Shown here: positions 2,945-62,984 of the stretch, in pieces
Numbering within the stretch: position 1 is the stretch's first letter
How the letters are laid out: the number at the start of each line of letters is the position of its first letter
Assembly (NCBI GenBank): GCA_951406725.2
Contig: OX597823.1
Location: forward strand, 50,778,001-50,842,000
Reading direction: 5' to 3'
Length of the DNA: 64,000 nt
Origin: Octopus vulgaris
Lineage: Eukaryota
Made by a program: the position numbers and the translations under genes
The notes under the pieces: generated by a model
Seen by the model: only the letters and a program-made list of their open reading frames with translations
Database searches by the model: none
What the model was told of the DNA's origin: nothing

Positions 2945-4091
2945 ACAGTCAGAGTCAAAATCCATCGACAAGGTTGCAAAAGGGACGAAACTTTGGAAGA
3001 AGAAATATAAATAATGAGTGGGAATCGAGTGTGTTAGATAATAAGGCATAAAAAAATATGACTTTCCCCAGACAAGATAATATGCTTCAACACACGAATT
3101 CACAAAAAGAATCTTGGAAACCAGATACAAACACGAAGTATATATACACACACATATACATATACACACATACATACATTCAAATGTATCTGTTTGTATG
3201 TATGTATATATATATATGTACATATATGTATATGTATGTGTGTATATATATACATACATATATGTATATATGTATGTATACACATACATATATAAATATG
3301 TATATATATATATACAAACATATGTACATATATAATAACAATTTAACAAATAAAACATATGCATACATACATATATGTACATACCTACATCTATATATAT
3401 ATACATGTATATATATATATAAGAGTACAGGACACCACAAATAAACGTAGAACACAACGAGAAACGAAAACAAAAACAAACAAGGAAACACACACACACA
3501 CACACAACACGCAAAACTTACACATACGTATATGAATACATATATTACACAAGAAGTAACCAGCAGGTACTCCACATATATAAATACAGACATACACATA
3601 CTGCAACGACATGAAGCAAATGTACACACTTACCACAATGGCACAGGATATATACATACAAACTTCTCCATAAACCGAAACTAAAAAAAAATGTATATTT
3701 TATCGTTTGTGCATAACCTACATTATATTTTAGACAACGTGTTACCTACTGCGGCCAGAATTTTTATGTATACAATATATTTATTCTACAAAATGAACTG
3801 ATTTCTTTGTACTATATGTGCATTATACATATACGTACATACGTACATATATGCATACATACATACATACATACATACATACATACATACATACATACAT
3901 ACATACATACATACATACATACATACATACATACATACTTACAACCCACCCCTCGAATATATATATGGAGAGAGTGTGAGAAAGAGACATATATATATAT
4001 ATAAACATGTATTTATACGTTTGAATGTATACATGTGTGTGAATTTTGAAATTTATATGTATTATATATATATATTAATCACTCTCTCTCA

Positions 4092-4135
<44 letters not shown>

Positions 4136-4165
4136 GTATACATACATACATATACATATACATAC

Positions 4166-4224
<59 letters not shown>

Positions 4225-4626
4225 AATATATGTGCAGATACGTAGATATATTTACGAGCTATTAATATAGATATACAAAACTCGTGTAAAAGTGATAAAT
4301 AACTGATAATAATACACAAGTAGGATTATAAAGCAAAGAAGAAAGAAACATACAAATAAAACATGCAATCAGAAAAGCGAAAGTAGGTGACTGAAAAAAA
4401 AAAAGAAGAAATATAAAGCGAAGAAGCAATGATGAAAAAAAGGTGCATAAAGAAGAGACATGCACCAATGAAATAGAAGGGAAGCTTGCACACACACACA
4501 TACAAACACACACACACACACAAACATACACACACACAAACACACACACACACGCACACACGCACACACGCGCACGTTTGTATATATCTTCATAAATCAT
4601 ATGTATATTTATAATATACTTATAAT

Positions 4627-5175
4627 CGCAGGAGTGACTGTGTTGTAAGTAGCTTGCTTACCAACCACATGCGTGGCACCTTGGGCAAGTGTCTTCTACT
4701 TTAGCTTCGGACCGACCGAAGCCTTGTGAGTGGATTTATGAATTCTTCCTATAAATATATCTATATACAGGTAGAAGTCACAAAAAAAAACAAAACGAAA
4801 CACAAAGAAAGGTGGTGTAGACAACAAACAGATGTATTAGTATAACGCTCGGGAAGTGAAAAATTCTTTAACGTTTCGAGGCTACGCTCTTCCACAGAAA
4901 GGAACACAGAAAGAAACAAAGCGAGAAATTAAAGAATGTGTAGTGGCTAACGGTCTATCTTGGCGAGCGTGTGCGTGTATGATTGTGTGTCTGTGTTTGT
5001 CCCACTACCATCGCTTGACAACCGATTGTGGTGTGTTTACGTCCCCGTAACTTAACGATTCGGCAACAGAGAATGATAGAATAAGTACTAGGCTTACAAG
5101 GAATAAATCCTGGGGTCGATTTGTTCGACTAAAAGGCGGTGCTCCAACATGGCCGCAGTCAAATGACTGAAAGAA
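4627..5175 (+). mobile_element. tRNA-derived SINE, family A, interrupted by an HHR-bearing insert (~4765-4945)
   Basis: Head GGAGTGACTGTG..GTAAGTAGCTTGCTTACCAACCAC, body CCTTGGGCAAGTGTCTTCTAC, tail GGTGCTCCAACATGGCCGCAGTCAAATGACTGAAA. Many homologous copies occur in the window. Confidence 0.8.
4865..4902 (-). ncRNA. Minimal type I hammerhead-like motif, A6U variant family
   Basis: Minus strand reads CTTT-CTGTGGA-A-GAGC(GTAG)CCTC-GAAA-CGTT-AAAG. Confidence 0.55.
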
Positions 5176-5346
5176 AAATAGCTACATGTTCGTACGCGTG
5201 CGCGTGTTTGTTTATTATTTTAACGGTTTTCAAAAGTTGGAACACTAATGTACAGACTACATATACATACATACATACATACATACACACATACACACAC
5301 ATATATATATATATAATACACACACACACACATATATATACACACA

Positions 5347-5384
<38 letters not shown>

Positions 5385-5402
5385 TATATATATACATAGG
5401 CA

Positions 5403-5712
5403 CAGGCGTGGATGTGTGGTAAGAAGCTTGCTTCCCAACCACATGGTTGAGTCCCACTGCGTGGCACCTTGGACAAGTGTCTTCTTCTATATATTTGTGT
5501 GTGTGTGTCTGTCTCTCTTTCATCACTTGCCAACCGATGCTGGAGTGTTTACGTCCCAGTAGATTAACGGTCCGGCAAAGGAGACCGATAGAATAGCTAT
5601 TAGGATTACAAAGAGTAAGTCGTGGTATCGATTTCTTCAACGAAAACCCTTTTAGGCGGTGCTCCAGCAGTCAAATGACTCGACCAGTCACATGATTGAA
5701 ACAAGAGAATAA
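5403..5712 (+). mobile_element. SINE family A copy (internally deleted)
   Basis: Same head, body and tail motifs as the other family A copies. Confidence 0.75.
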
Positions 5713-5745
5713 ATGAATAAACCCCCCCCCATTATTTATTTTCCA

Positions 5746-7090
5746 CCAGGCCCCTCTAAACTTCTCTTCACTCTTGACATCAAGAGCCTATACACGGTGA
5801 TCCGAAGAGGGGCCATGGGTACGAGAATGGGCCCAAATATTCTCAAGTTTCCCCGGTGCCACTCTTGAACTATACGGTTGTTATATTGACGATTGTATCG
5901 GTGCGACCTCACTCTCTCGTGAACATCTAGACTCCTTCCTCTCTTTTCTCAAATATTTCCATCTTGCCCTCCATTTCTGCATTATTCCCGACACTTCGGT
6001 CGCCTTTCTTGACATTTCGGTCAGCATTCATCACTCCACTCTCACCACCTCCATCCACTACAAACACATAGACTCACACTCATACCTCAACTTCTCATCC
6101 TCCCACCCTAAACACACCAAGCTCTCCATCCCCTATTCCCAATTCCTCCGTCTACGCAGGCTCTAGCAGTGACGACCATGACTCATGGCTCTCCACTTCA
6201 TCCTACGTGGATATCTCCTCACCACTATCCACATCGCCCTTGCCAGAGCACGTTCTGTGAACCGTGCATCTGTTCTCTCCTTCCGCACCCGCTCCGCCAT
6301 CACCCGTCTCCCGTTTCCCCTCACCTACCACCCCACCAACCTACCTCTCCAATGCACCCTTTTCCGAGCCTTCCGGTGACTACAGTCCGACCCCCCACTT
6401 CGCACATCTTTCCTAACCAACCCCTCCCCTCCTTCAAATGAGCCCACAACCTACGAGACCTTTTGATCACAGCTTTTTCCCTAACCCAACCTCCCATTCC
6501 GTCTCGTTCCCCTGCTCCCGCCCACGCTGCCGCACTTGTCCTTACCTCTCCAATACCACCCTCCTCACAGGCACCCAACATTGACCCTATCATATCACTG
6601 ACCCCTTCACCTGCACTTCTAGCAACGTCATCTACTGCATCTCCTGCTCTCTCTGTTCTTTTCTATACATTGGTAAAACAGGACGCCGCTTGGCTGACCG
6701 GTTCGCGGAACACCTCCGAGACATCAGACTCGGCAACGACACTCCGGTTTCGCGCTATTTCCGCTCTACAGGTCATTCTATACTACACCTGTCTGTGTTC
6801 GGACTGTCCTTGCATAAGGGCCATCCGGACTCCCGTCTTCGCAGTGATTAATCTTCTCTCTTTGCTCCTTTGCGCCCCATGGACTCAACTCTCCTCCTCC
6901 TCTTCATCTAACTCTCCTCCTTTCTCCTCTCTCCCTCTCACACGTACTCCCTCCCACCTCTCCTCTCTTGCTCTGACATATACTTCATCTCTTCACTCCT
7001 ACCACTCCTCGCCCTTCATCATCACCCCTCCCTCGTTACCCAACCCTTACACATTCCAACCCCACCATCCCTATACATCCCTTTTCTATC
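5746..7090 (+). mobile_element. Penelope-like retroelement remnant: RT C-terminal part, GIY-YIG endonuclease and pyrimidine-rich 3' region (frameshifted)
   Basis: Translations LLFTLDIKSLYT, AMGTRMGP, YIDDCIG, VAFLDISV, IHYKHIDSHSYLNFSSSHPKHTKLSIPYSQFLRLRRL, then CTSSNVIYCISCSLCSFLYIGKTGRRLADRFAEHLRDIR (GIY-YIG). Confidence 0.92.
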
Positions 7091-10596: not shown

Positions 10597-10806
10597 CGCC
10601 ATGTTGATTCGTTAGCTACTGCACGCATTTTTTTTCTCTCCTTCTTTCTGTGTTTTTTTTCTCTCTGTGTATCTTTCTGTTGAAGAGCGTAGGCTTGAAA
10701 CGTTAAAGACTTGTTTTATTTATATTTCCTGAGCGCCATACTAATACAATTGTTCGTTTGTTTTCCACCTGCCTTCGTCTTTTGTTTATTTTCATAAAGC
10801 TTCCCG

Positions 10807-10810
<4 letters not shown>
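10597..10810 (+). mobile_element. HHR-bearing Penelope-type terminal-repeat fragment (HHR at 10672-10709); almost identical inverted copy at 37117-37327
   Basis: TCTTT-CTGTTGA-A-GAGC(GTAG)GCTT-GAAA-CGTT-AAAGA, flanked by (TA)n. Confidence 0.7.
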
Positions 10811-10863
<53 letters not shown>

Positions 10864-31587: not shown

Positions 31588-31972
31588 AGTGGCTGTGTGA
31601 TAAGTAGCTTTCATACCGACCGCATTGTTCCGGGTTTAGTCCCACTGTAAGGTACCTTGGGCAAGTGTCTTCTACTATAACCGCGGGCCAACCAAAGCCT
31701 TGTGAGTGGATTTGGTAGACGGAAACTGAAAGAAGCCCGTCGTATATATGTATGTGTGTGTGTATGTTTGTGTGTCTGTGTTTGTCACCCCAACATCGCT
31801 TGACAACCGATGCTGGTGTGTTTACGTCCCTGTAACTTAGCGGTTCTGCAAAAGAGACGAATGGAATAAGTACTAGGCTTACAAAGAATAAATCCTTCGG
31901 TGGATGTGCTCGACTAAAGGCGATGTTCCAGCATGGCCGCAGTCAAATGACTGAAACAAGTAAAAGAATAAA
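31588..31972 (+). mobile_element. SINE family A, nearly complete copy
   Basis: Complete head, body, central (TG)n and tail AAATGACTGAAACAAGTAAAAGA. Confidence 0.88.
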
Positions 31973-31984
31973 AAATGATAGAAT

Positions 31985-32050
<66 letters not shown>

Positions 32051-34400: not shown

Positions 34401-35050
34401 AGAGAGAAAAATGTATAAGGATTAACGGTTCAACATGGTCAATAAATATCACACGCACACACACACACACACACACAAACAAATAACAACGGATAGGTTG
34501 TGGTTCACCTACTACAGCTGTTTTAGATGTTTTTTTTTATTGATGAAAAAAATTATTACATAATGTGACAAAACCGTTTTTGCAGGTGGATGTAAGTACA
34601 AATTTAACATTTCAAATCATTTTGAAACTCAAGTAAGTGCCATTTCCTGATTCTCTGGCGAGCATTGGTCAGAGAGTGATTAGATTCCTCTGGCATGTAT
34701 TTTTTGAAGGAGAAGCCTTTAGGTGCATGGAGCGGGCCAGAGAAGAGTTGTTATGGTTGGAGAATGAATACGGAATAGTCCCCGTAACTTAGCAGTTCGG
34801 CAAAAGAGATCGATAGAATAAGTATTGGGCTTACAAAGAATAAGTCCTGAGGGTCGATTTCTTAGACTGAAAAGACCTTTAACGCTGATGTTCCAGCATG
34901 GCCGCAGTCAAACGAATGAAATTTATGACGGTGAATTTACCGGATATGACTCGATCGACTCAACGGAAAACAACAGCCTAATCTCACCCCAAGAATTTAA
35001 AAGAATGAAAGCAAAGAATGCATCCTAGTATTAATTAATTATAAAATTAT

Positions 35051-35458
35051 ACTCTTTTACTCTTTTACTTGTTTCAGTCATTTGACTGTGGCCATGCTGG
35101 AGCACCACCTTTAGTCGAGCACATCGACTCTAGGAATTATTCTTTGTAAGCCTAGTACTTATTCTATCGGTCTCTTTTGCCGAACCGCTAAGTTACAGGG
35201 ACGTAAACACACCAGCATCGGTTGTCAAGCGATGTTGGGGTGACAAACACAGACACAAACATACACACACACACACACATATATATATATACATCCGACG
35301 GGCTTCTTTCAGTTTCCGTCTACCAAATCCACTCACAAGGCTTTGGTCGGCCCGAGGCTATATTAAAAGACATTTGCCCAAGGTGCTACGCAGTGGGACT
35401 GAACCCGGAACCATGAAGTTCGTAAGCAAGCTACTTACCACACAGCCACTCCTACGCC
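35051..35458 (-). mobile_element. SINE family A, complete copy
   Basis: Full reverse-complement match to the family, from head GGCGTAGGAGTGGCTGTGTGGTAAG to tail GTAAAAGAGTAAAAGAG. Confidence 0.9.
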
Positions 35459-35955: not shown

Positions 35956-37085
35956 ATATGACTCGATCGACCCAACGGAAAACAGCAGCCTAATCTCACC
36001 CCAATTTACACACTACCATCTTAAAACAACGACTGTGTGGTTCTGGAGAACAGACATGATAATCATAGTTGGGCTGCCTCCGTCAGAGGTCTGTTCGATT
36101 AGTTAAACAAGAGTTTCAATCCCAGCGTCACATAAAACGCATGCACACACAGAACGCACTTATACACACAGACACACACACGCATATACACACATCCGCA
36201 TAGACGCGCACACGCACACTTTCTCGGCATCTCTTTCTCTCTACTCTTTCTCTTCTCCCTCTCTTCTGTCACACACCAAATTCCCGCTTTCTCTTCATTC
36301 AAATGCCACCGATCTTTTCACTTTATATTTCCTTCTTTTCGTCCTCCTCGCCGCTCTTTTCTTCGTCTTCCTCTTCTTTTTCTTCTTCTACTTCTTCATG
36401 ATGACCCGCTGTTATTGACAACGATGGACTAACTATACTCCTCCACCTCATTCTCCCTTCCTCCCTCCTTCCCTCCTTTACTTCTGATGCAATCTCTTTT
36501 CCATCTTCTTTCATCATGTTTGTTCAACTCTCCGCCGACCAAGACACTGCAGATGTCGCTGCTGTGTTGCAAATGTCCAGTGTAGCACTGCAGCGACACC
36601 AGGCAGACTTTGTAAAGTAATTGTCACCTAAACACTCGCACACGTGCGCACACACACTTCGAGCGCACGCGCACTCACACAAGCATACACGTAGCTACAC
36701 ACACATAACTACTCATATGCATAAATACGTACAATCATATACACAAATTCACACATACACAAACATGAACACATATACGCATATACTTATGTACACGCAG
36801 ATGCAGGCACACACATTAATTCATTTGCTCACACACTAATACTCAAGTGTTGACATAGCCTTATACGCGTACACACACGACGCGGATAACGACCAGGCAA
36901 CCTACCCGCTCATATACACACCTATACGAACACATAAGCTGGTAAGTGTAGGCCATGATTTTTAGCCGCCCGAGGCGCTAACATTCGAATGGTTACTACA
37001 GCCACCGTCAACCAAACATCTCACTACCTCAAATCAAAGTTACATGTGGACACATACACAAGCGTATACAGAGAAATATATGAGC

Positions 37086-37116
<31 letters not shown>

Positions 37117-37119
<3 letters not shown>

Positions 37120-38016
37120 CGGGAAGCTTTATGAAAATAAACAAAAGACGAAGGCAGGTGGAAAACAAACGAACAATTGTATTAGTATGGCGCTCAGGAA
37201 ATATAAATAAAACAAGTCTTTAACGTTTCGAGCCTACGCTCTTCAACAGAAAGATACACAGAGAGAGAAAAACACAGAAAGAAGGAGAGAAAAAAATGCG
37301 TGCAGTAGCTAACGAATCAACATGGCGATCTGATTTCGGCCAGAGGTCAAAGATCAAACATGAGACGCGAGAGCGAAATAAGGGGAGATAATAGGGTTGA
37401 TAAAAGGGTTGAGGGACCAGCTAAAAGTGCGTGGGAGGGGTCTGGATGTGTGTATGTATAGGGTTGGTGTATGTATTAGTATGTATAAGTGTGTGTGTGT
37501 GTGTATGAGAGAGTATTAGTGCGTAAGATTGGTCTGGACGTGCGTATGTATGGGGTTGGTGTATGTATTAGTATGTATTAGTATGTATTAGTACGTATTG
37601 GTATGTATAGGTGTGTGTGTGTGTGTGTGAGAGAGTATAAGTGCGTATGCGGGGTCTGGACGTGTGTATGTATAGGGTTGGTGTAAGTATTAGTATGTAC
37701 TGGTATGTATTAGTACGTATTAGTATGTATTAGTTGGTGTGTGTATTAGTATGGCACATCATATGTGATGTGATGTGTAAAGTCATGTGGTGTAGTGAGG
37801 AGAAGAGGGGGAGGGGGAGAAGAGGGGGGGAGAAGGCGAGGGGAAGAAGAGGGGGAGGAGAAGGGGGAAGAGGAGAGGATGGGGGAGAAGGAAGGGGAGG
37901 AGAGAGATGAAGGAGGAAAGAGGGAGAGGGAGAGAGGGAGTGAGGGAGCAGAGGGAAGGGGAAGAGGGAGGGAGAAAGAGGGAAGAAGGGAAGGGGAGTA
38001 GGGGTGAAAGGATGAA
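37117..38016 (-). mobile_element. Penelope-type 3' region with terminal HHR (37217-37254)
   Basis: Minus strand TCTTT-CTGTTGA-A-GAGC(GTAG)GCTC-GAAA-CGTT-AAAGA. The upstream pyrimidine-rich tract shares CACCA.CCCTATACAT motifs with the Penelope 3' region at ~7015-7085. Confidence 0.7.
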
Positions 38017-41579: not shown

Positions 41580-41592
41580 TTATATATATAGA

Positions 41593-41733
41593 TTATTTAC
41601 ATTATTTACATTTGACGGATATTTGTCCTCATCTTGTTTGTTGTTAACACGTTTCGGCTGATATACCCTCCAGCCTTCATCAGGTGTCTTGGGGAAATTT
41701 CGAACCTGATTCTCATTCCTAAGGTATTTTTGA

Positions 41734-41789
<56 letters not shown>

Positions 41790-41852
41790 TCACTGCCTGG
41801 AATCGAACTCGGAATCTTGGGGTTAGTAGCCTGCGCTCTTAACCACTACGCC
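41593..41852 (-). mobile_element. tRNA-headed, HHR-containing SINE-like unit (left copy)
   Basis: Minus strand: GGCGTAGTGGTTAAGAGCGC...GAGTTCGATTCC (A/B boxes), then (TAA)n, then ACAC-CTGATGA-A-GGCTG..CAGCC-GAAAC-GTGT. The GTT cleavage triplet is deleted in this copy. Confidence 0.75.
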
Positions 41853-41863
41853 CACGGGCTTAT

Positions 41864-41925
41864 GGCATAGTAGTCAAGAGCGCGGCTTCTGACCCCAAGA
41901 TTCAAAGTTCGATTCCATGCAGTGA

Positions 41926-41997
<72 letters not shown>

Positions 41998-42134
41998 CAT
42001 CAAAAATACCTTAGTAATGAGAACCCGTGTTCGAAATTTCTCCAAGGCACCTGAAGAGGACTGGAGAATATATCAGTCGAAACGTTGTGTTGACAACAAA
42101 CAAGATGAGGAAAATATCCGTCAAACGTAAATAA
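41864..42134 (+). mobile_element. tRNA-headed, HHR-containing SINE-like unit (right copy; HHR 42047-42090)
   Basis: GGCATAGTAGTCAAGAGCGC...AAGTTCGATTCC, then (TAA)n, then GCAC-CTGAAGA-G-GACTG..CAGTC-GAAA-CGTT-GTGT. Confidence 0.75.
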
Positions 42135-42404
42135 ACTACATAATTCCTAATCTCTTAAATATAGAACTGTATCCGTTTCGGGGATTAACAGATATGTGGG
42201 TATTATATTTCACATTCTGCACAAAAGAACATAACGAGTATATCTGAAGGTAAACTCGTAGCATGTGTATGCACATAAAAAATAATACTTTAAGGATACA
42301 ACCAATACACAAGCAGGGTATAAAATATACTTCTTTAATTATCACCTACTTAAGTTAAAATTATCATTCTGAAGGAACTACATGTGTTTCAGTATTGGAA
42401 GATT

Positions 42405-50440: not shown

Positions 50441-50569
50441 TATATATATATACAGGCGTAGGTGTGGCTTTGTAGTAAAAACTTTGCTTCCCATCTGCAT
50501 GGTTCCATGTTCAGTCCTACAGTGTAGCACCTTGGACAAGTGTCTACCATAGCCTCAGGCTGATCAAGT

Positions 50570-50970
50570 ACTTCGTTCTGTCCGGCCAGTTGAGTTCGAG
50601 AAAGACCGATTAAACCAACTTTTGCACGAAAATTCTCGTCAAACGACAAGGTTACTGGCAGAGAAAATGGAATGCTCCCACATTGCTATAGAGAAGCATC
50701 TTCACTCGATGGGAAAGGTTCAGAAGTATGGATCATGGGTTCCACATGCTTTGAGTGTCAACAGCAAAAATCAACAACCCACAATCTCCGCTGGTTTGCT
50801 TGCTCGTCACCGCTCAACTCATGGACACAAGCAGCGATTTCTTTACCGAATCGTTACTGGCGACGAAAAATGGTGCTTGTAAATCAATACGAATCAGCGT
50901 AAAGAATGGCTTAGTCCCGGTAAACAAGCAACACCGCGGTTGTGAAAAAAAGATCTTCATCCACGTAAAA
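50570..50970 (+). mobile_element. Mariner (Mos1/Hsmar-like) transposase fragment
   Basis: RQTTRLLAEKM..SH.AI..HLHSMGKVQKYGSWVPHALS...RFLYRIVTGDEKWCL (WVPHEL motif and first catalytic D). Confidence 0.9.
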
Positions 50971-51164
50971 AGTAATACTGAAATAGCGTAAGAAATAAGA
51001 GATTGCTCCTGGCTCGCATTAGTCAAGAAGTTGAAAATATCTTTGACCCATGACACTGCATAGACTCTAAGTAAGACATGTGTAAAATTTGAATGAAATC
51101 GATTAGGTAGTTCTCGAGTTTTAGTGATGCACACATACAGACAGACACACACACATTCTCAGTT

Positions 51165-51212
<48 letters not shown>

Positions 51213-51387
51213 TAAATATTAGGGAATAAATCCAAATTTACAGGGAAAAAATCAGATTTAGGATTAAATCCAATTTTATAGTAAAATATTATAAAATATT
51301 ATTAGAGACAAAACCACTATTTTGCAAAACAAACAAGGAAAGACTTAATCAATACATAAAATTTTAATAAATAGTCAAAAAAAACCG

Positions 51388-51430
51388 CCACTACAATTGT
51401 TTCTTGTCTTGATCGACAATCTTCAGGTGG
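51388..51430 (-). ncRNA. Minimal type I hammerhead ribozyme motif
   Basis: Exact reverse complement of 54972-55014. Confidence 0.75.
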
Positions 51431-52039
51431 ACTTCCAATCTAAAATATCAATATTTTAAAATATAAAAATAATAATTTTAAAATAATTAAAGTATGATTG
51501 AAAAAATATAAATATATAATCCATATATAACCTATATATAATCCATATATAATCAATATATAAACAATATATAAACTAAAATAAACCTATCAACAATTAA
51601 ATATAAAATATAAAATATAAAATATAAAATATAAAACAAAAGAAAATAATAATAATATAATAATAAACTATATATACACCCATACACATATACCTAATTA
51701 TATATAACCATATCTAACTACATACACTAAATCACACACCTATATATATATCCCTATACATACACATAAAAACGTCTAGGCAACTATAAATAAATAAAAT
51801 AGCTAAATACTTCAACACAAAACTTATTCATACTCTCACACACACACACATACAACCCACATTCACGCTCTAGAAAACGGACATCACTTAAAATTATGAA
51901 CGGAGAAATGGAATAAATGGAATTAAAAATTATATTCACTTGGTAAAACGAACACTACTTAAAAATTATGAATGAAACAATGCAATAAAACAACAGACAT
52001 CGCAAATAGACACAAATTACTACGAATTCCTTAACAAAC

Positions 52040-52965
52040 CTACCATGATAAACCAAAACTCATAAAAACATATAATGATAAAATCTCCCTTTACTAAACT
52101 CTATAACATACCTATATAGCAATCCCCCTAACCTAAACATTCACACACAAATACACACACATAAACCACACACCCACGACATATACAAATACCCACACCA
52201 CTTACACATACCTATACATACATATAAACCTCAACATATACTCCAAAAACCCACTCAACCCCACACAGACAAATAAACACAAAAATTATGAATGGATTCT
52301 TTTATAAAACTACCATGATAAGCTAAAACTCACAAAACATAAATGATAAAACCTCCCTTTACTAAACACTATAACATACTTATATAGCAATCCCTTTAAC
52401 CTATACATTCACACACAAATACACACACGTAAACCACATACCCATAACAAATACAAACACCCACCCCACTCACACACACCCACAAGTACATATAAGCCTC
52501 AACATATACACCAAACAAAATTACTTTACCAAGGAACTTAACATATGTATAAAAAATATATAACCGCTCTGGAAACGAACATCTTTAAAACAATGAATGG
52601 AGAAATGGAATAAATGGAATTAAAAATAATATTCACGTGGCAAAACGAACACCACTCAAAAATTATGAATGAAACAATGTAATAAAACAACCAACATCGA
52701 AAATAGACAAATTACCACGAATTCCCTAAAAAAAAAAAAAAAAAAACCATGATAAACCAAAACTCTTAAAAACATATAACGATAAAATCTCCCTTTGCTA
52801 AACTCTATAACAAACCTATATAGCAATCCCCCTAACCTAAACATTCACACACAAAAAAACACACACGTAAACCACAGACCCACAACTTATACACATACCT
52901 ATACTAACTTATAAACCTCAATATACACCAAAAACCCACTCCCTCCCCACACAGACAAATTAACA
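52040..52965. repeat. Diverged tandem repeats (~270-440 bp units) inside the inverted-repeat element
   Basis: ACCATGATAA.C.AAAACTC...TCCCTTT.CTAAAC.CTATAACA.AC.TATATAGCAATCCC recurs at ~52042, ~52312 and ~52746. Confidence 0.8.
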
Positions 52966-54971
52966 CATACATCCCAAAACCTAAATAACAAACCCATATA
53001 CACATTCACACACAAACACACACACACGCAAAACACACACACACAACAGATACATATACTCCCTCAATATACGCATATACATACTCACTAAACTCGATAT
53101 ATACAACAATATTTACACACCCACACTCATACAGATAAATAAATTATACAACTAAAAAGTCACACACAATCTCATATACATAAACACTCCAATAAAAAAC
53201 AACATTAAATACATCGTAATTAACCAGAATATCAAAAATAACAATATGACATAAGGAGAAATAAAATACATACTTACAAGTCAGTTTCAAATTATGAAGT
53301 GAAATTAAATTCTTAGCCGTTAAAAAAATCAAACCAAAATTACGTTACCATAGAAATATAACTTATGTAAAAAAAGAATACGCGCCATGGAAAGTAAACG
53401 TCATTTAAAATTATGAATGGAGAAATAGAATAAATGGAACTAAAAACTATATACACGTGGCAAACCATCACTACTTAAAAAAAAAAAAAAATTTATTATG
53501 AATGGATTCTTTAATAAAACTACCATAATAATAAATTATTATATACATTTATGAGCTTTAGCTCATCTTAGCAGCTCTAACAAACAACTTGCAGTAACCC
53601 AAATCTATTCTCGATGCCTGCCTTACTACTACACTATTCCATTCCCAATTCCAAGCAACGCTAGCCCACCACCCGGTTACAATTCCCAACTCCACCCATT
53701 CATTCACAATTTCAACGACGTTCACCTCCACAACGCTACATATAAGCTTCAACATATACACCGGAGATTCGCTTTCACATCCGTGCGGATGGGTGAGAGT
53801 ATACATTAAGTGTAGTGATGGGGCTCCCATTACTATACACATTTGTACCTGTGTGGTAGTCTCCATGTGTATATTCACGCACGGGTATAAATGCAGGGGG
53901 TACACGCGCACGGCATGTACGTGTACCCCCTCACATGTACATATGCATGCTAGTTGGGCTCGATATGTGCAACAATGTAATCGCGCCCGCATACATGCAT
54001 ATGGGTGAATTGCACAATCAAAATACGCACACGTGTTTGTGCGTTCCCTGGTTGTGCAATTCACCCATCTGGGTGTGAGTGGGTGTATGCGTATTGCTGT
54101 GGATGTCGAGCTTAATACGTATGTATATGAGTGTGTATTGGGGGGTTGTACGTATTTATTGTGTGCATGTGCTTCACGCACGTGCGTCCATGTATGGATG
54201 AATATATTGGGATTGCTATGTGGGTGTGGGTGTGTGGTTTATGTGTGTGTATTTGTGTGTGAATGTTTAGGTTAGGGAATTGCTATATAGGTATGTTATA
54301 GAGTTTAGTAAAGGGAGATTTTATCATTATATGTTTTTATGAGTTTTGGTTTATCATGGTAGGTTTGTTAAGGAATTCGTAGTAATTTGTGTCTATTTGC
54401 GATGTCTGTTGTTTTATTGCATTGTTTCATTCATAATTTTTAAGTAGTGTTCGTTTTACCAAGTGAATATAATTTTTAATTCCATTTATTCCATTTCTCC
54501 GTTCATAATTTTAAGTGATGTCCGTTTTCTAGAGCGTGAATGTGGGTTGTATGTGTGTGTGTGTGGGAGTATGAATAAGTTTTGTGTTGAAGTATTTAGC
54601 TATTTTATTTATTTATAGTTGCCTAGACGTTTTTATGTGTATGTATAGGGATATATATATAGGTGTGTGATTTAGTGTATGTAGTTAGATATGGTTATAT
54701 ATAATTAGGTATATGTGTATGGGTGTATATATAGTTTATTATTATATTATTATTATTTTCTTTTGTTTTATATTTTATATTTTATATTTTATATTTTATA
54801 TTTAATTGTTGATAGGTTTATTTTAGTTTATATATTGTTTATATATTGATTATATATGGTTTATATATAGGTTATATATGGATTATATATTTATATTTTT
54901 TCATTCATACTTTAATTATTTTAAAATTATTATTTTTATATTTTAAAATATTGATATTTTAGATTGGAAGT

Positions 54972-55014
54972 CCACCTGAAGATTGTCGATCAAGACAAGA
55001 AACAATTGTAGTGG
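54972..55014 (+). ncRNA. Minimal type I hammerhead ribozyme motif
   Basis: Stem I CCAC/GTGG, core CTGAAGA, stem II TTGTC-GATCAA-GACAA, GAAA, palindromic CAATTG stem III, GTA cleavage triplet. Confidence 0.78.
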
Positions 55015-55689
55015 CGGTTTTTTTGACTATTTATTAAAATTTTATGTGTTGATTAAGTCTTTCCTTGTTTGTTTTGCAAAATAGTGGTTTTGTCTCTAAT
55101 AATATTTTATATATATATATATATATATATGTTTGTCTCAAAGCCGTAGGGCGCCTGTGTCATCCATGTTTTTAATCGTTACTGTCCCCAAAAAAGATTT
55201 TTTGTTTCCTGTTCGTCTCTGTTGCGTTTCATTCTTTCCTTCTGTGGCTGGCTGATTCAGAGCGGATATCAGAATTAAACAGCCGAAATCTGCGATGAGG
55301 CATCAGTTTCTGACTGAAGAATGAAGGCTTGAATGACCTGTTTGTCTTTTTGTTCGTCTCTTCGTGTATTTCACGTTATTTATTTATATAAAGGTCTATT
55401 ATATATATATATATATATATATATAATTATACATGGTAAAATAAGGATTCAGATAGAATCAGGTACTTGAAAAGATACGCATCATGTAGGGTTAAATAAA
55501 CCTGTGGTTCCGGCCCATGCTTGGTAAATATCAAATAGGACATTCCAGTTGTGAGCACAGAGAAAAGCAACCCCATGAGTATTTAGCGCCTAGTGGCTGG
55601 TTCAAAGCACGCGTTACGTTGAATTGTACGTTGTTGGTATGTTCTAGGGTGTCCGAAAAATCGTAAATCCCCTTGGTGTATTATAATTG

Positions 55690-62741: not shown

Positions 62742-62952
62742 CTCTCTCTTTTACTTGTTTCAGTCATTTGACTGTGGCCATACTGGAGCACCGCCTTTAG
62801 TCGAACGAATCGACTACAGGACTTATTCTTTGTAAGCCTAGTACTTATTCTATCGGTCTCTTTTGCCGAACCGCTAAGTTACGTGGATGTGAACACACCA
62901 GCATCAGTTGTCAAGCGATGTTGGATGGACAAACAGAGACACACAAACATAG

Positions 62953-62984
<32 letters not shown>

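What the first reader, a model, noticed from the sequence alone, without database searches (positions are those of the whole stretch)
51291..55110. 3.8 kb foldback element whose two arms each run outward into an intact hammerhead
Seen in sequence: the ~885 bp arms show only scattered differences and a strong strand skew (A/C-rich left, G/T-rich right). Identical HHRs lie at 51388-51430(-) and 54972-55014(+), each about 100 bp from the outer ends, and there is no recognisable RT ORF. The divergent architecture parallels the 41.6-42.1 kb pair. Established knowledge: Penelope-like elements often insert with inverted, partly deleted terminal repeats. Inference: this is a young, large non-autonomous PLE derivative. 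Read-through transcription would give ~0.9 kb of dsRNA, a strong ADAR or siRNA substrate, with a self-cleaved 3' end.
Basis: partly seen in the sequence, partly recalled or inferred. Interest (0 to 1): 0.7.

Follow-up and report, generated by a model that had tools for sequence, protein, structure and literature searches.

The report
Twin-primed Penelope copy reveals spliced leaders
This DNA hairpin is a shortened, back-to-back copy of the tail end of a young protein-coding Penelope-type jumping gene, likely made when its enzyme copied one RNA from both strands of the cut target; hundreds of short sister copies lack one stretch exactly at splice signals, which would explain why the long copies of such elements keep their introns.

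Summary
The foldback is real: arms 99.1% alike, type I hammerhead motifs at the stated places. It is not a family of its own. It is a 5'-truncated copy plus an inverted partial copy of a young autonomous Hydra-clade Penelope-like element (6.34-kb unit, 838-aa RT + GIY-YIG ORF, 7 whole ORFs found), inserted in (TA)n. This architecture is published, also for a Hydra-clade family. The family adds something: all 71 two-ended insertions have one long and one short outer end, 80 nt apart (3 are complex); this scan noted that two-fixed-ends pattern before on other DNA of this genome. New here: the terminal repeat holds an initiator-like motif, a 23-nt exon and a 1.84-kb GT-AG intron; 309 genomic arms lack that intron exactly and stop at the initiator; both arms share splice state in 24 of 24 loci; a sister subfamily met the same prediction (20 of 30). 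So sense RNA, spliced or not, is the likely template, and spliced RNA gives only short dead-end copies. No A-to-G editing signature; self-cleavage at 55010 and dsRNA are unsupported. RNA itself was not observed.

The parts
51167..51207 (.). (TA)n target tract, left
   Evidence: sequence; all called ends of the family lie in (TA)n
51208..54227 (-). main copy: 3' 3.02 kb (unit positions 3318-6340) of the Hydra-clade element, non-coding, unspliced, ending at the long (L) end
   Evidence: collinear with natural full-length copy L061 479-6818 at 96%
51208..51287 (-). 80-nt 'tail' between the short (S, unit 6260) and long (L, unit 6340) ends; present on this arm only; holds a 13-bp hairpin (fold not significant, z -1.2)
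51388..51430 (-). type I hammerhead motif, predicted cut after 51392, 105 nt from S and 185 nt from L; palindromic loop III CAATTG
   Evidence: core and stems kept in diverged subfamilies
51440..53277 (-). retained GT-AG intron, 1838 nt, donor GTAAGT, acceptor TTTTAG 9 nt before hammerhead stem I; G/T-rich with degenerate direct repeats (51866-52281 ~ 52565-52967, 52003-52247 ~ 52270-52515)
   Evidence: removed exactly in 54 of 96 exon-2 starts sampled and 309 exact arms genome-wide; repeats
53278..53300 (-). predicted exon 1 (23 nt) starting at the A of an initiator-like TCACTT (53302-53297): inferred transcription start
   Evidence: 52 of 54 spliced arms begin at or 3' of this A; motif and donor kept in three diverged subfamilies
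53301..54227 (-). 3'UTR upstream of the inferred start; includes an old inverted A/C-rich block and an imperfect hairpin (53998-54071)
54226..54227 (.). inversion junction, 2-nt overlap (GT) in a GT-rich stretch; single in the genome
54226..55110 (+). inverted arm: unit positions 5375-6260, unspliced (acceptor AG at 54961-54962), ending at the short (S) end
54972..55014 (+). second hammerhead motif, predicted cut after 55010
55108..55130 (.). (TA)n target tract, right

Best explanation
The stretch 51208-55110 is a 5'-truncated copy joined head to head to an inverted partial copy of the 3' end of a young, autonomous Hydra-clade Penelope-like retrotransposon, likely produced in one insertion event in which the element's protein primed two cDNAs on one unspliced sense RNA from the two strands of a (TA)n target. 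Shown: parent element, clade motifs, target, two fixed ends 80 nt apart, one of each per insertion, exact GT-AG deletions in short copies, shared splice state of the arms. Inferred: one cDNA starts at the long end and the other at the short end (probably the two active sites of a dimer); they stop at random (3318 and 5375 here) and are joined by microhomology. Inferred: capped, spliced mRNA is also primed, but at the two sites in its own 5' leader, so the cDNA runs off at the start site after 175-255 nt and gives ~0.2-0.43-kb promoter-poor dead ends; ORF-bearing and long copies come from unspliced tandem read-through RNA and therefore keep the intron. The hammerhead is under selection in the parent lineage but is uncut in the RNA that is copied; in this locus it is a passenger.
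For: Parent ORF upstream of the same sequence in other copies, 7 with whole open frames. Hydra motifs all present. Outer ends L+S in 24 of 24 two-ended loci picked by an internal query and 47 of 47 picked by exact hammerhead, 68 of 71 if three complex loci are counted against (p 5e-17), and 8 of 8 pairs in a sister subfamily. Tail on the longer arm 21 times, on the shorter 22 times. Arms share variants seen in no other sampled copy in 20 of 28 loci. Splice state: 54 spliced, 36 unspliced, 6 unclassed of 96; second donor at +4 used in 5; 0 of 24 two-armed loci mixed, 10.9 expected, P 5e-6. 309 exact spliced arms against 4 that run 6 nt upstream of the initiator A. All 57 unspliced passes over exon 1 run on upstream; 10 of 10 classifiable ORF-leading units and 73 of 73 arms in long-copy loci are unspliced. 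Out-of-sample test: sister subfamily with another exon 1 (27 nt) and intron (1273 nt): 20 of 30 hits spliced at the predicted sites, all starting -5..+10 of the initiator A. A foreign piece joined to the same acceptor (L107) maps to a locus where it ends CAGGG|GTGAGT. In vitro, a Poseidon protein cuts and extends both strands from two start sites that bound the tail, on uncut RNA (PMC11167929).
Against: No RNA was observed: start site, splicing and cap are read from genomic copies only. Shared private variants and shared splice state could also come from two RNAs of one source or from later conversion between arms; the window's own arms share no private variant. Three loci (L086, L089, L120) hold an inner same-type pair, and one counted pair (L096) has 1.6 kb between arms. 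Three loci are spliced yet run upstream of the initiator (L115, L175, L176), so splicing of read-through RNA does occur. 35 of 106 loci show one end only. The acceptor-side source of L107 was not found. In vitro the two start sites were used equally on both strands (PMC11167929), so the one-long-one-short coupling is not shown biochemically. Why mature mRNA is not primed at its downstream repeat is unexplained.
Confidence: 0.8

Rival explanations
1. The inverted arm arises by self-priming: the first cDNA (or an antisense template) folds back and copies itself, and the endonuclease trims one end (model of PMC3846280; tail by resolution, PMC8557442).
For: Explains arms that share variants and splice state and short overlaps at junctions (16 of 44 overlap).
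Against: A fold-back copy can only be a subset of the first strand, yet the tail sits on the shorter arm in 22 of 43 loci, mostly with no tandem unit to supply it. Deletions follow sense-strand GT-AG signals, which an antisense template would not give.
Confidence: 0.1
2. The short foldbacks are not spliced run-off copies but a self-propagating palindromic (MITE-like) deletion derivative moved as a unit.
For: One identical centre occurs at 26 loci on 16 contigs with unrelated flanks; two of 12 such loci (L163, L165) have a second arm that stops about 20 nt past the centre with no S or L end.
Against: The deletion ends are exact splice sites with a +4 alternative donor; the same centre geometry recurs in a sister subfamily with a different exon 1 (L216/217); the centre sits at the initiator A, where run-off cDNAs would end; centre orientation against the tail is mixed 8:4. 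This was my reading until and was dropped.
Confidence: 0.1
3. One reading: the 3.8-kb foldback is a non-autonomous element in its own right whose read-through RNA forms dsRNA, is edited and self-cleaves.
For: 885-bp near-perfect arms could pair if read through; hammerhead cores are intact.
Against: Junction is single-copy; A>G 8.69 vs T>C 8.21 per 10,000 among one-locus changes; the hammerheads are sequestered in the duplex; the element's own inferred promoter reads away from the right arm.
Confidence: 0.04
4. The inversion is a chimeric-read or assembly artefact.
For: The junction was not confirmed in public contigs (skipped by the tool); long near-perfect inverted repeats are a known long-read artefact (recalled).
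Against: Arms differ at 8 places with derived alleles on both sides, end at two different family-wide fixed points, and 71 other loci have the same build.
Confidence: 0.02

Closest known systems
Hydra-clade Penelope-like elements (Craig et al. 2021, PMC8557442; section 11 read whole, other passages, supplement parts), e.g. Penelope-13_HM and Hydra-1_Obim
   Same: C-terminal GIY-YIG, DKT, CxCX5C linker, CxxC and CxH around E/N, (TA)n target, type I hammerhead about 100-200 nt from the 3' end. Penelope-13_HM is listed with a 5'-truncated inverted copy at its 5' end and a hammerhead on both strands, the same build as this locus.
   Different: Unit 6.34 kb with 3.77 kb after the stop (listed families 1.1-3.0 kb); tail 80 nt (30-40 stated); RWK reads KWK; about 115-aa Asn-rich insert absent from relatives; hammerhead differs from Hydra-1_Obim's, so another family; no intron or start site is described for Hydra in the parts I read.
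Penelope of Drosophila virilis and Chlamys-3_cRei (PMC2377424, PMC8557442, PMC4209133; passages)
   Same: Start site and initiator inside the terminal repeat, short first exon, 5'UTR intron whose end lies next to hammerhead helix I.
   Different: Intron 75 or 398 nt there, 1838-1853 nt here; those papers describe introns as retained in genomic copies, whereas here hundreds of copies are exactly spliced.
Poseidon_Ac in vitro (Frangieh et al. 2024, PMC11167929; parts 1-2 of 4 read)
   Same: Two internal start sites bounding the tail, both target strands extended, uncut RNA used.
   Different: There the sites lie inside the ORF and no coupling of site to strand was seen; here they lie 135 and 55 nt before the ATG and are paired one long, one short.
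LINE-1 twin priming and 5' inversions (recalled, not read here)
   Same: Two primers from the two target strands on one RNA, head-to-head join by microhomology.
   Different: L1's second primer anneals at a random internal site and the inverted part is not duplicated; here both primers start at fixed 3' sites and the copied part is duplicated.
Animal non-LTR retrozymes (bioRxiv 10.64898/2026.07.22.740005, passages; PMC7229834, search listing only)
   Same: Short non-coding hammerhead-bearing copies related to Penelope terminal repeats.
   Different: Retrozymes are tandem 170-400-nt units; neither the window copy nor the short spliced copies are tandem arrays of their own.

Membership tests
EN+ Penelope-like elements | single ORF with RT and GIY-YIG endonuclease | tested here: met
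   838-aa ORF with YRDD and VYIG in parent copies; by motif and by 42 relatives at E<=1e-20; Pfam and PDB sequence searches gave no informative hit. The window copy itself lacks the ORF.
EN+ Penelope-like elements | partial tandems (pLTR), inverted 5'-truncated copies, tail on one end | tested here: met
Hydra clade | DKG changed to DKT | tested here: met
   SDKT 127-130; 35 of 40 relatives ADKT/SDKT
Hydra clade | RWK motif near the N terminus | tested here: inconclusive
   RIKWK at 41-45 aligns with RMRWK/RLRWK of relatives; R is K here
Hydra clade | CxCX5C linker, CxxC and CxH around E and N, no CCHH | tested here: met
   CTCRDKSNC 689-697, CYLC 795-798, CRH 824-826 (definition); absence of CCHH judged by eye
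Hydra clade | insertion into (TA)n; canonical hammerhead near 3' end | tested here: met
   all S and L ends listed run into TA tracts (tandem joins apart); motif
Hydra clade | generally short (<3 kb) | tested here: not met
   6340-nt unit; 2.3-3.8 kb after the stop in ten related copies. A typical trait in the paper, not a diagnostic one.
Hydra clade | placement in the RT tree with named members | not tested
   no tree with reference families was built; compared by eye with the paper's alignment
Naiad/Chlamys | N-terminal endonuclease, CxC domain, no canonical hammerhead | tested here: not met
   endonuclease is C-terminal, hammerhead present
   1 exact match of the junction in 2.8 Gb
type I hammerhead ribozyme | conserved core with stems I-III | tested here: met
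   loop III changes CAATTG to CGATCG with the palindrome kept
type I hammerhead ribozyme | self-cleavage | not testable with these tools
   dimer fold -22.0 vs monomer -6.5 kcal/mol is a prediction only
spliceosomal intron in the terminal repeat | GT-AG ends removed exactly in RNA-derived copies | tested here: met
   (genomic copies); RNA reads not seen

The most novel reading that the evidence does not exclude
Penelope-like elements do not avoid spliced RNA: their protein twin-primes a single sense RNA at two fixed sites, spliced or not, and introns are 'retained' only because in spliced mRNA the usable priming sites lie in the 5' leader, so spliced templates leave just short dead-end foldbacks while ORF-bearing copies must come from unspliced tandem RNA. 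This would answer the intron-retention question open since 2003 and rule out the antisense-template model for this clade.
Probability: 0.65. Interest if true: 0.75.

Novelty: new variant of a known kind. Interest (0 to 1): 0.6.

Why it matters
The locus alone is ordinary. [quoted passage not shown] Exactly spliced copies, a mapped start site and arms that always share splice state turn both into direct tests. It also warns that short palindromic hammerhead repeats that look like MITEs can be processed leaders of an autonomous element.

Tried and rejected
Rfam over the window and over the motif: only microsatellite-driven miRNA hits, no hammerhead. Pfam and PDB by sequence for the ORF: nothing useful. 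Public runs: 20 of 24 listed rows hold part of the stretch, no RNA holder listed on record; laying four contig sets on 53700-54460 showed the family on both sides but the tool skips 54212-54266, so the junction is untested; no reads were laid over the whole locus. Editing: no strand excess of A>G. Hammerhead conservation among young copies is no evidence of selection (change rate 0.0069 vs 0.0067 next door); only the diverged subfamilies are, and no hammerhead core was found within the last 420 nt of four older copies. Tail hairpin not better than shuffles. Dimer prediction for residues 1-490: no verdict. Self-propagating MITE reading of the short copies: held, then dropped (vs 82, 86). Acceptor-side source of L107: not found by pattern or in 200 kb downstream of the exon. 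The G before the initiator A in 6 of 7 run-off arms fits cap copying (recalled from L1) but is also supplied by the opposite arm, so it is not counted. Literature searches that found no report of spliced genomic Penelope copies or of twin priming in PLEs; Arkhipova 2003, Evgen'ev and Arkhipova 2005, Pyatkov 2004 and Repbase notes were not available to me and may hold such reports; the bioRxiv supplement was closed.
Full report
Observation. The two arms (51286-52177 and 54226-55116) align at 99.1% over 893 columns, with 5 substitutions and 3 one-base gaps. There is no RT frame nearby. Both outer ends lie in (TA)n. The left end is 51208, not 51291: 80 nt of family sequence lie outside the inverted repeat.

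The parent. The window lies in a 2.8-Gb genome. The 3' end has 1120 candidate matches, the best 40 at 99-100%, and the 43-nt hammerhead has 492 exact copies against 0 for the reversed control. Forty 5-10 kb stretches around copies show that the sequence continues upstream of window 54227 into an ORF of 838 aa; 7 of 62 protein matches are whole and free of stops (a floor). Using one natural copy as ruler (L061 479-6818, 6340 nt, ATG at 55, stop at 2571), the window is positions 3318-6340 on the minus strand joined to 5375-6260 on the plus strand. Its junction occurs once in the genome. The nearest copy differs by 0.35% over 2890 nt. So this is a young single insertion product of an autonomous element, not a non-autonomous family.

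Clade. Craig et al. (PMC8557442; section 11 read whole; passages; supplement parts) define the Hydra clade by RWK, DKT, a CxCX5C linker, CxxC and CxH near the C terminus, no CCHH, (TA)n targets and a canonical hammerhead. The protein has SDKT, CTCRDKSNC, CYLC, CRH and KWK in place of RWK, aligned with the same motifs in 40 relatives (41 of the 43 sequences were aligned). Named relatives are from cephalopods, so the host is likely one (inference). The paper already states that inverted 5'-truncated copies and a tail on one end are usual, and lists Penelope-13_HM with an inverted copy and hammerheads on both strands. No tree was built.

Two fixed ends. The first 100 exact hammerhead hits form 75 clusters, 23 with a divergent pair and none convergent; 70 not already held were fetched. 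Ends fall at 6260 (S) or 6340 (L). Among 36 loci chosen by an internal query 24 are two-ended, and among the 70 chosen by hammerhead 47 are; the outer ends are one S and one L in all 71 (L079, L080 and the window were left out because they were picked with the tail). Three loci hold an inner LL or SS pair; counting them against gives 68 of 71, p 5e-17 against free choice. The other 35 loci show one end. The tail is on the longer arm in 21 and the shorter in 22 of 43 loci with unequal arms, which a fold-back copy of the first cDNA cannot give. Arms share variants absent from all other sampled copies in 20 of 28 loci with at least 300 nt overlap, not in the window. Frangieh et al. (PMC11167929, parts 1-2 of 4) showed extension of both strands from two start sites bounding the tail. 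Earlier notes of this scan describe the same two-fixed-ends pattern for other repeats in this genome; none matched this family by sequence.

The spliced copies. About half of the hammerhead-picked loci (36 of 70) are 0.2-0.43 kb copies in which unit position 4254 is joined to 6108. I first read them as a self-copying palindrome, since one centre recurs at 26 loci. The deletion ends are, however, a donor GTAAGT and an acceptor TTTTAG, 1838 nt apart in the window (53277 to 51440). Of 96 exon-2 starts in the 70 loci, 45 use this donor, 5 the GT four bases on, 4 a variant exon, 36 are unspliced and 6 unclassed; 52 of the 54 spliced arms begin at or 3' of the A of an initiator-like TCACTT 23 nt before the donor, 7 exactly on it. 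Genome-wide, 309 exact spliced arms stand against 4 that run 6 nt further upstream; two of those reach 140 and 300 nt upstream. Initiator, donor and acceptor are kept in three diverged subfamilies, and not recognisable in six older copies. As a test outside the sample I searched a sister subfamily by its exon-2 start (340 hits): of the first 30, 20 are spliced at the predicted sites of its own 27-nt exon and 1273-nt intron, all starting -5 to +10 of the initiator A, 7 are unspliced, 3 truncated, and 8 of 8 pairs are S+L. One insertion carries foreign sequence joined to the same acceptor; its source ends in CAGGG then GTGAGT, though the acceptor-side source was not found.

One RNA, two pools. 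In 24 two-armed loci with both arms classed, none mixes spliced and unspliced (10.9 expected, P 5e-6). All 57 unspliced passes over exon 1 run on upstream of the initiator, 10 of 10 classifiable ORF-leading units are unspliced, and so are 73 of 73 arms in long-copy loci (one with a one-base variant). The simplest account (inferred) is that mature mRNA is primed in its own leader and yields run-off dead ends, while long copies such as the window's come from unspliced tandem read-through RNA. This layout matches D. virilis Penelope and Chlamys-3_cRei, with start site, short exon and 5'UTR intron in the terminal repeat (PMC2377424, PMC8557442, PMC4209133; passages), where intron retention is called unexplained and an antisense template was proposed (PMC3846280, passages). 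Six searches found no paper on spliced genomic copies or twin priming in PLEs; key older papers were not in the library.

The hammerhead and the dsRNA idea. The core is unchanged in 165 of 172 young segments, but so is the DNA next to it. Across subfamilies the core and stems stay while N7 and loop II change and loop III moves from CAATTG to CGATCG, keeping the palindrome that a dimer needs (dimer fold; PMC4209133). Every copy was made by reading through the cut site, 105 or 185 nt inside the ends, so the template was uncut. In a transcript across this locus each motif would pair with the other arm (-77 against -5 kcal/mol). One-locus substitutions show A>G 8.69 and T>C 8.21 per 10,000 on the sense strand, so no editing mark. 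Public contigs hold the family but could not test the junction. Transcription of the locus is unknown.

Verdict. The finding as given is a known kind of Penelope insertion; its family is a new long-repeat variant of the Hydra clade whose spliced short copies bear on an open question. Identity about 0.97, twin priming on one RNA about 0.75, the explanation of intron retention about 0.65. Interest 0.6.

Noticed in passing
window 41592-42144: Unrelated inverted pair, arms 82% alike over 577 columns, (AAT)n tracts, minimal hammerhead cores at 42051(+) and 41683(-), the left one two bases short in the stem III-I part. An earlier scan note calls such repeats the end of a Poseidon-type element with a tRNA-type head; not tested here.
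   Followed up: partly
window 50553-51158: Broken frames just left of the insertion that look like a Tc1/mariner transposase remnant (motifs recalled; Pfam gave no supporting hit); the (TA)n target follows it.
   Followed up: partly
window 31743-31988 / 35040-35285 / 62747-62971 and 10654-10850 / 37076-37272: Other inverted repeat pairs, 88-96%.
   Followed up: no
L142 480-1100; L086 860-1460: Flanks on both sides are inverted copies of each other beyond the TA tracts: insertion at the centre of a palindrome, or a later inverted duplication; L086's inner long-long pair may have this cause.
   Followed up: partly
L107 / L227 (G000:C2:52.885 Mb) and L228 (G000:C13:22.810 Mb): A 330-nt single-copy piece ending at a GTGAGT donor was copied to another contig between two element ends: likely a host exon retroposed by this element.
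   Followed up: partly
P0001 residues 496-610: 41% asparagine insert between thumb and linker, mostly gap in relatives; like the N-rich inserts of Adineta Penelopes (PMC3846280).
   Followed up: partly
L070, L077, L081, L095, L097, L099, L129, L145, L148: Subfamily with about 510 nt more at unit position 5233, inside the intron; L072, L073 and the C7 copy share an internal duplication 3746-5526.
   Followed up: no
L177-L182: Older subfamilies (ORF about 83% alike) keep the last 160 nt and tail; L182 has a hammerhead with a much longer stem II; none was seen in the last 420 nt of L177-L181.
   Followed up: partly
L106 4453-4870: Short foldback of an older subfamily that lacks the hammerhead part.
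   Followed up: no
unit 6205-6245 with ORF +60..+100: Predicted long-range pairing across the tandem join between the stretch before the short end and the ORF start (no shuffle control); could make only ORF-leading repeats good priming sites.
   Followed up: no
L046 upstream (G000:C5:120.957 Mb); L067 upstream; L041 upstream: A 351-aa Tc1-like transposase frame and RTE-like RT frames in flanks (labels recalled).
   Followed up: no
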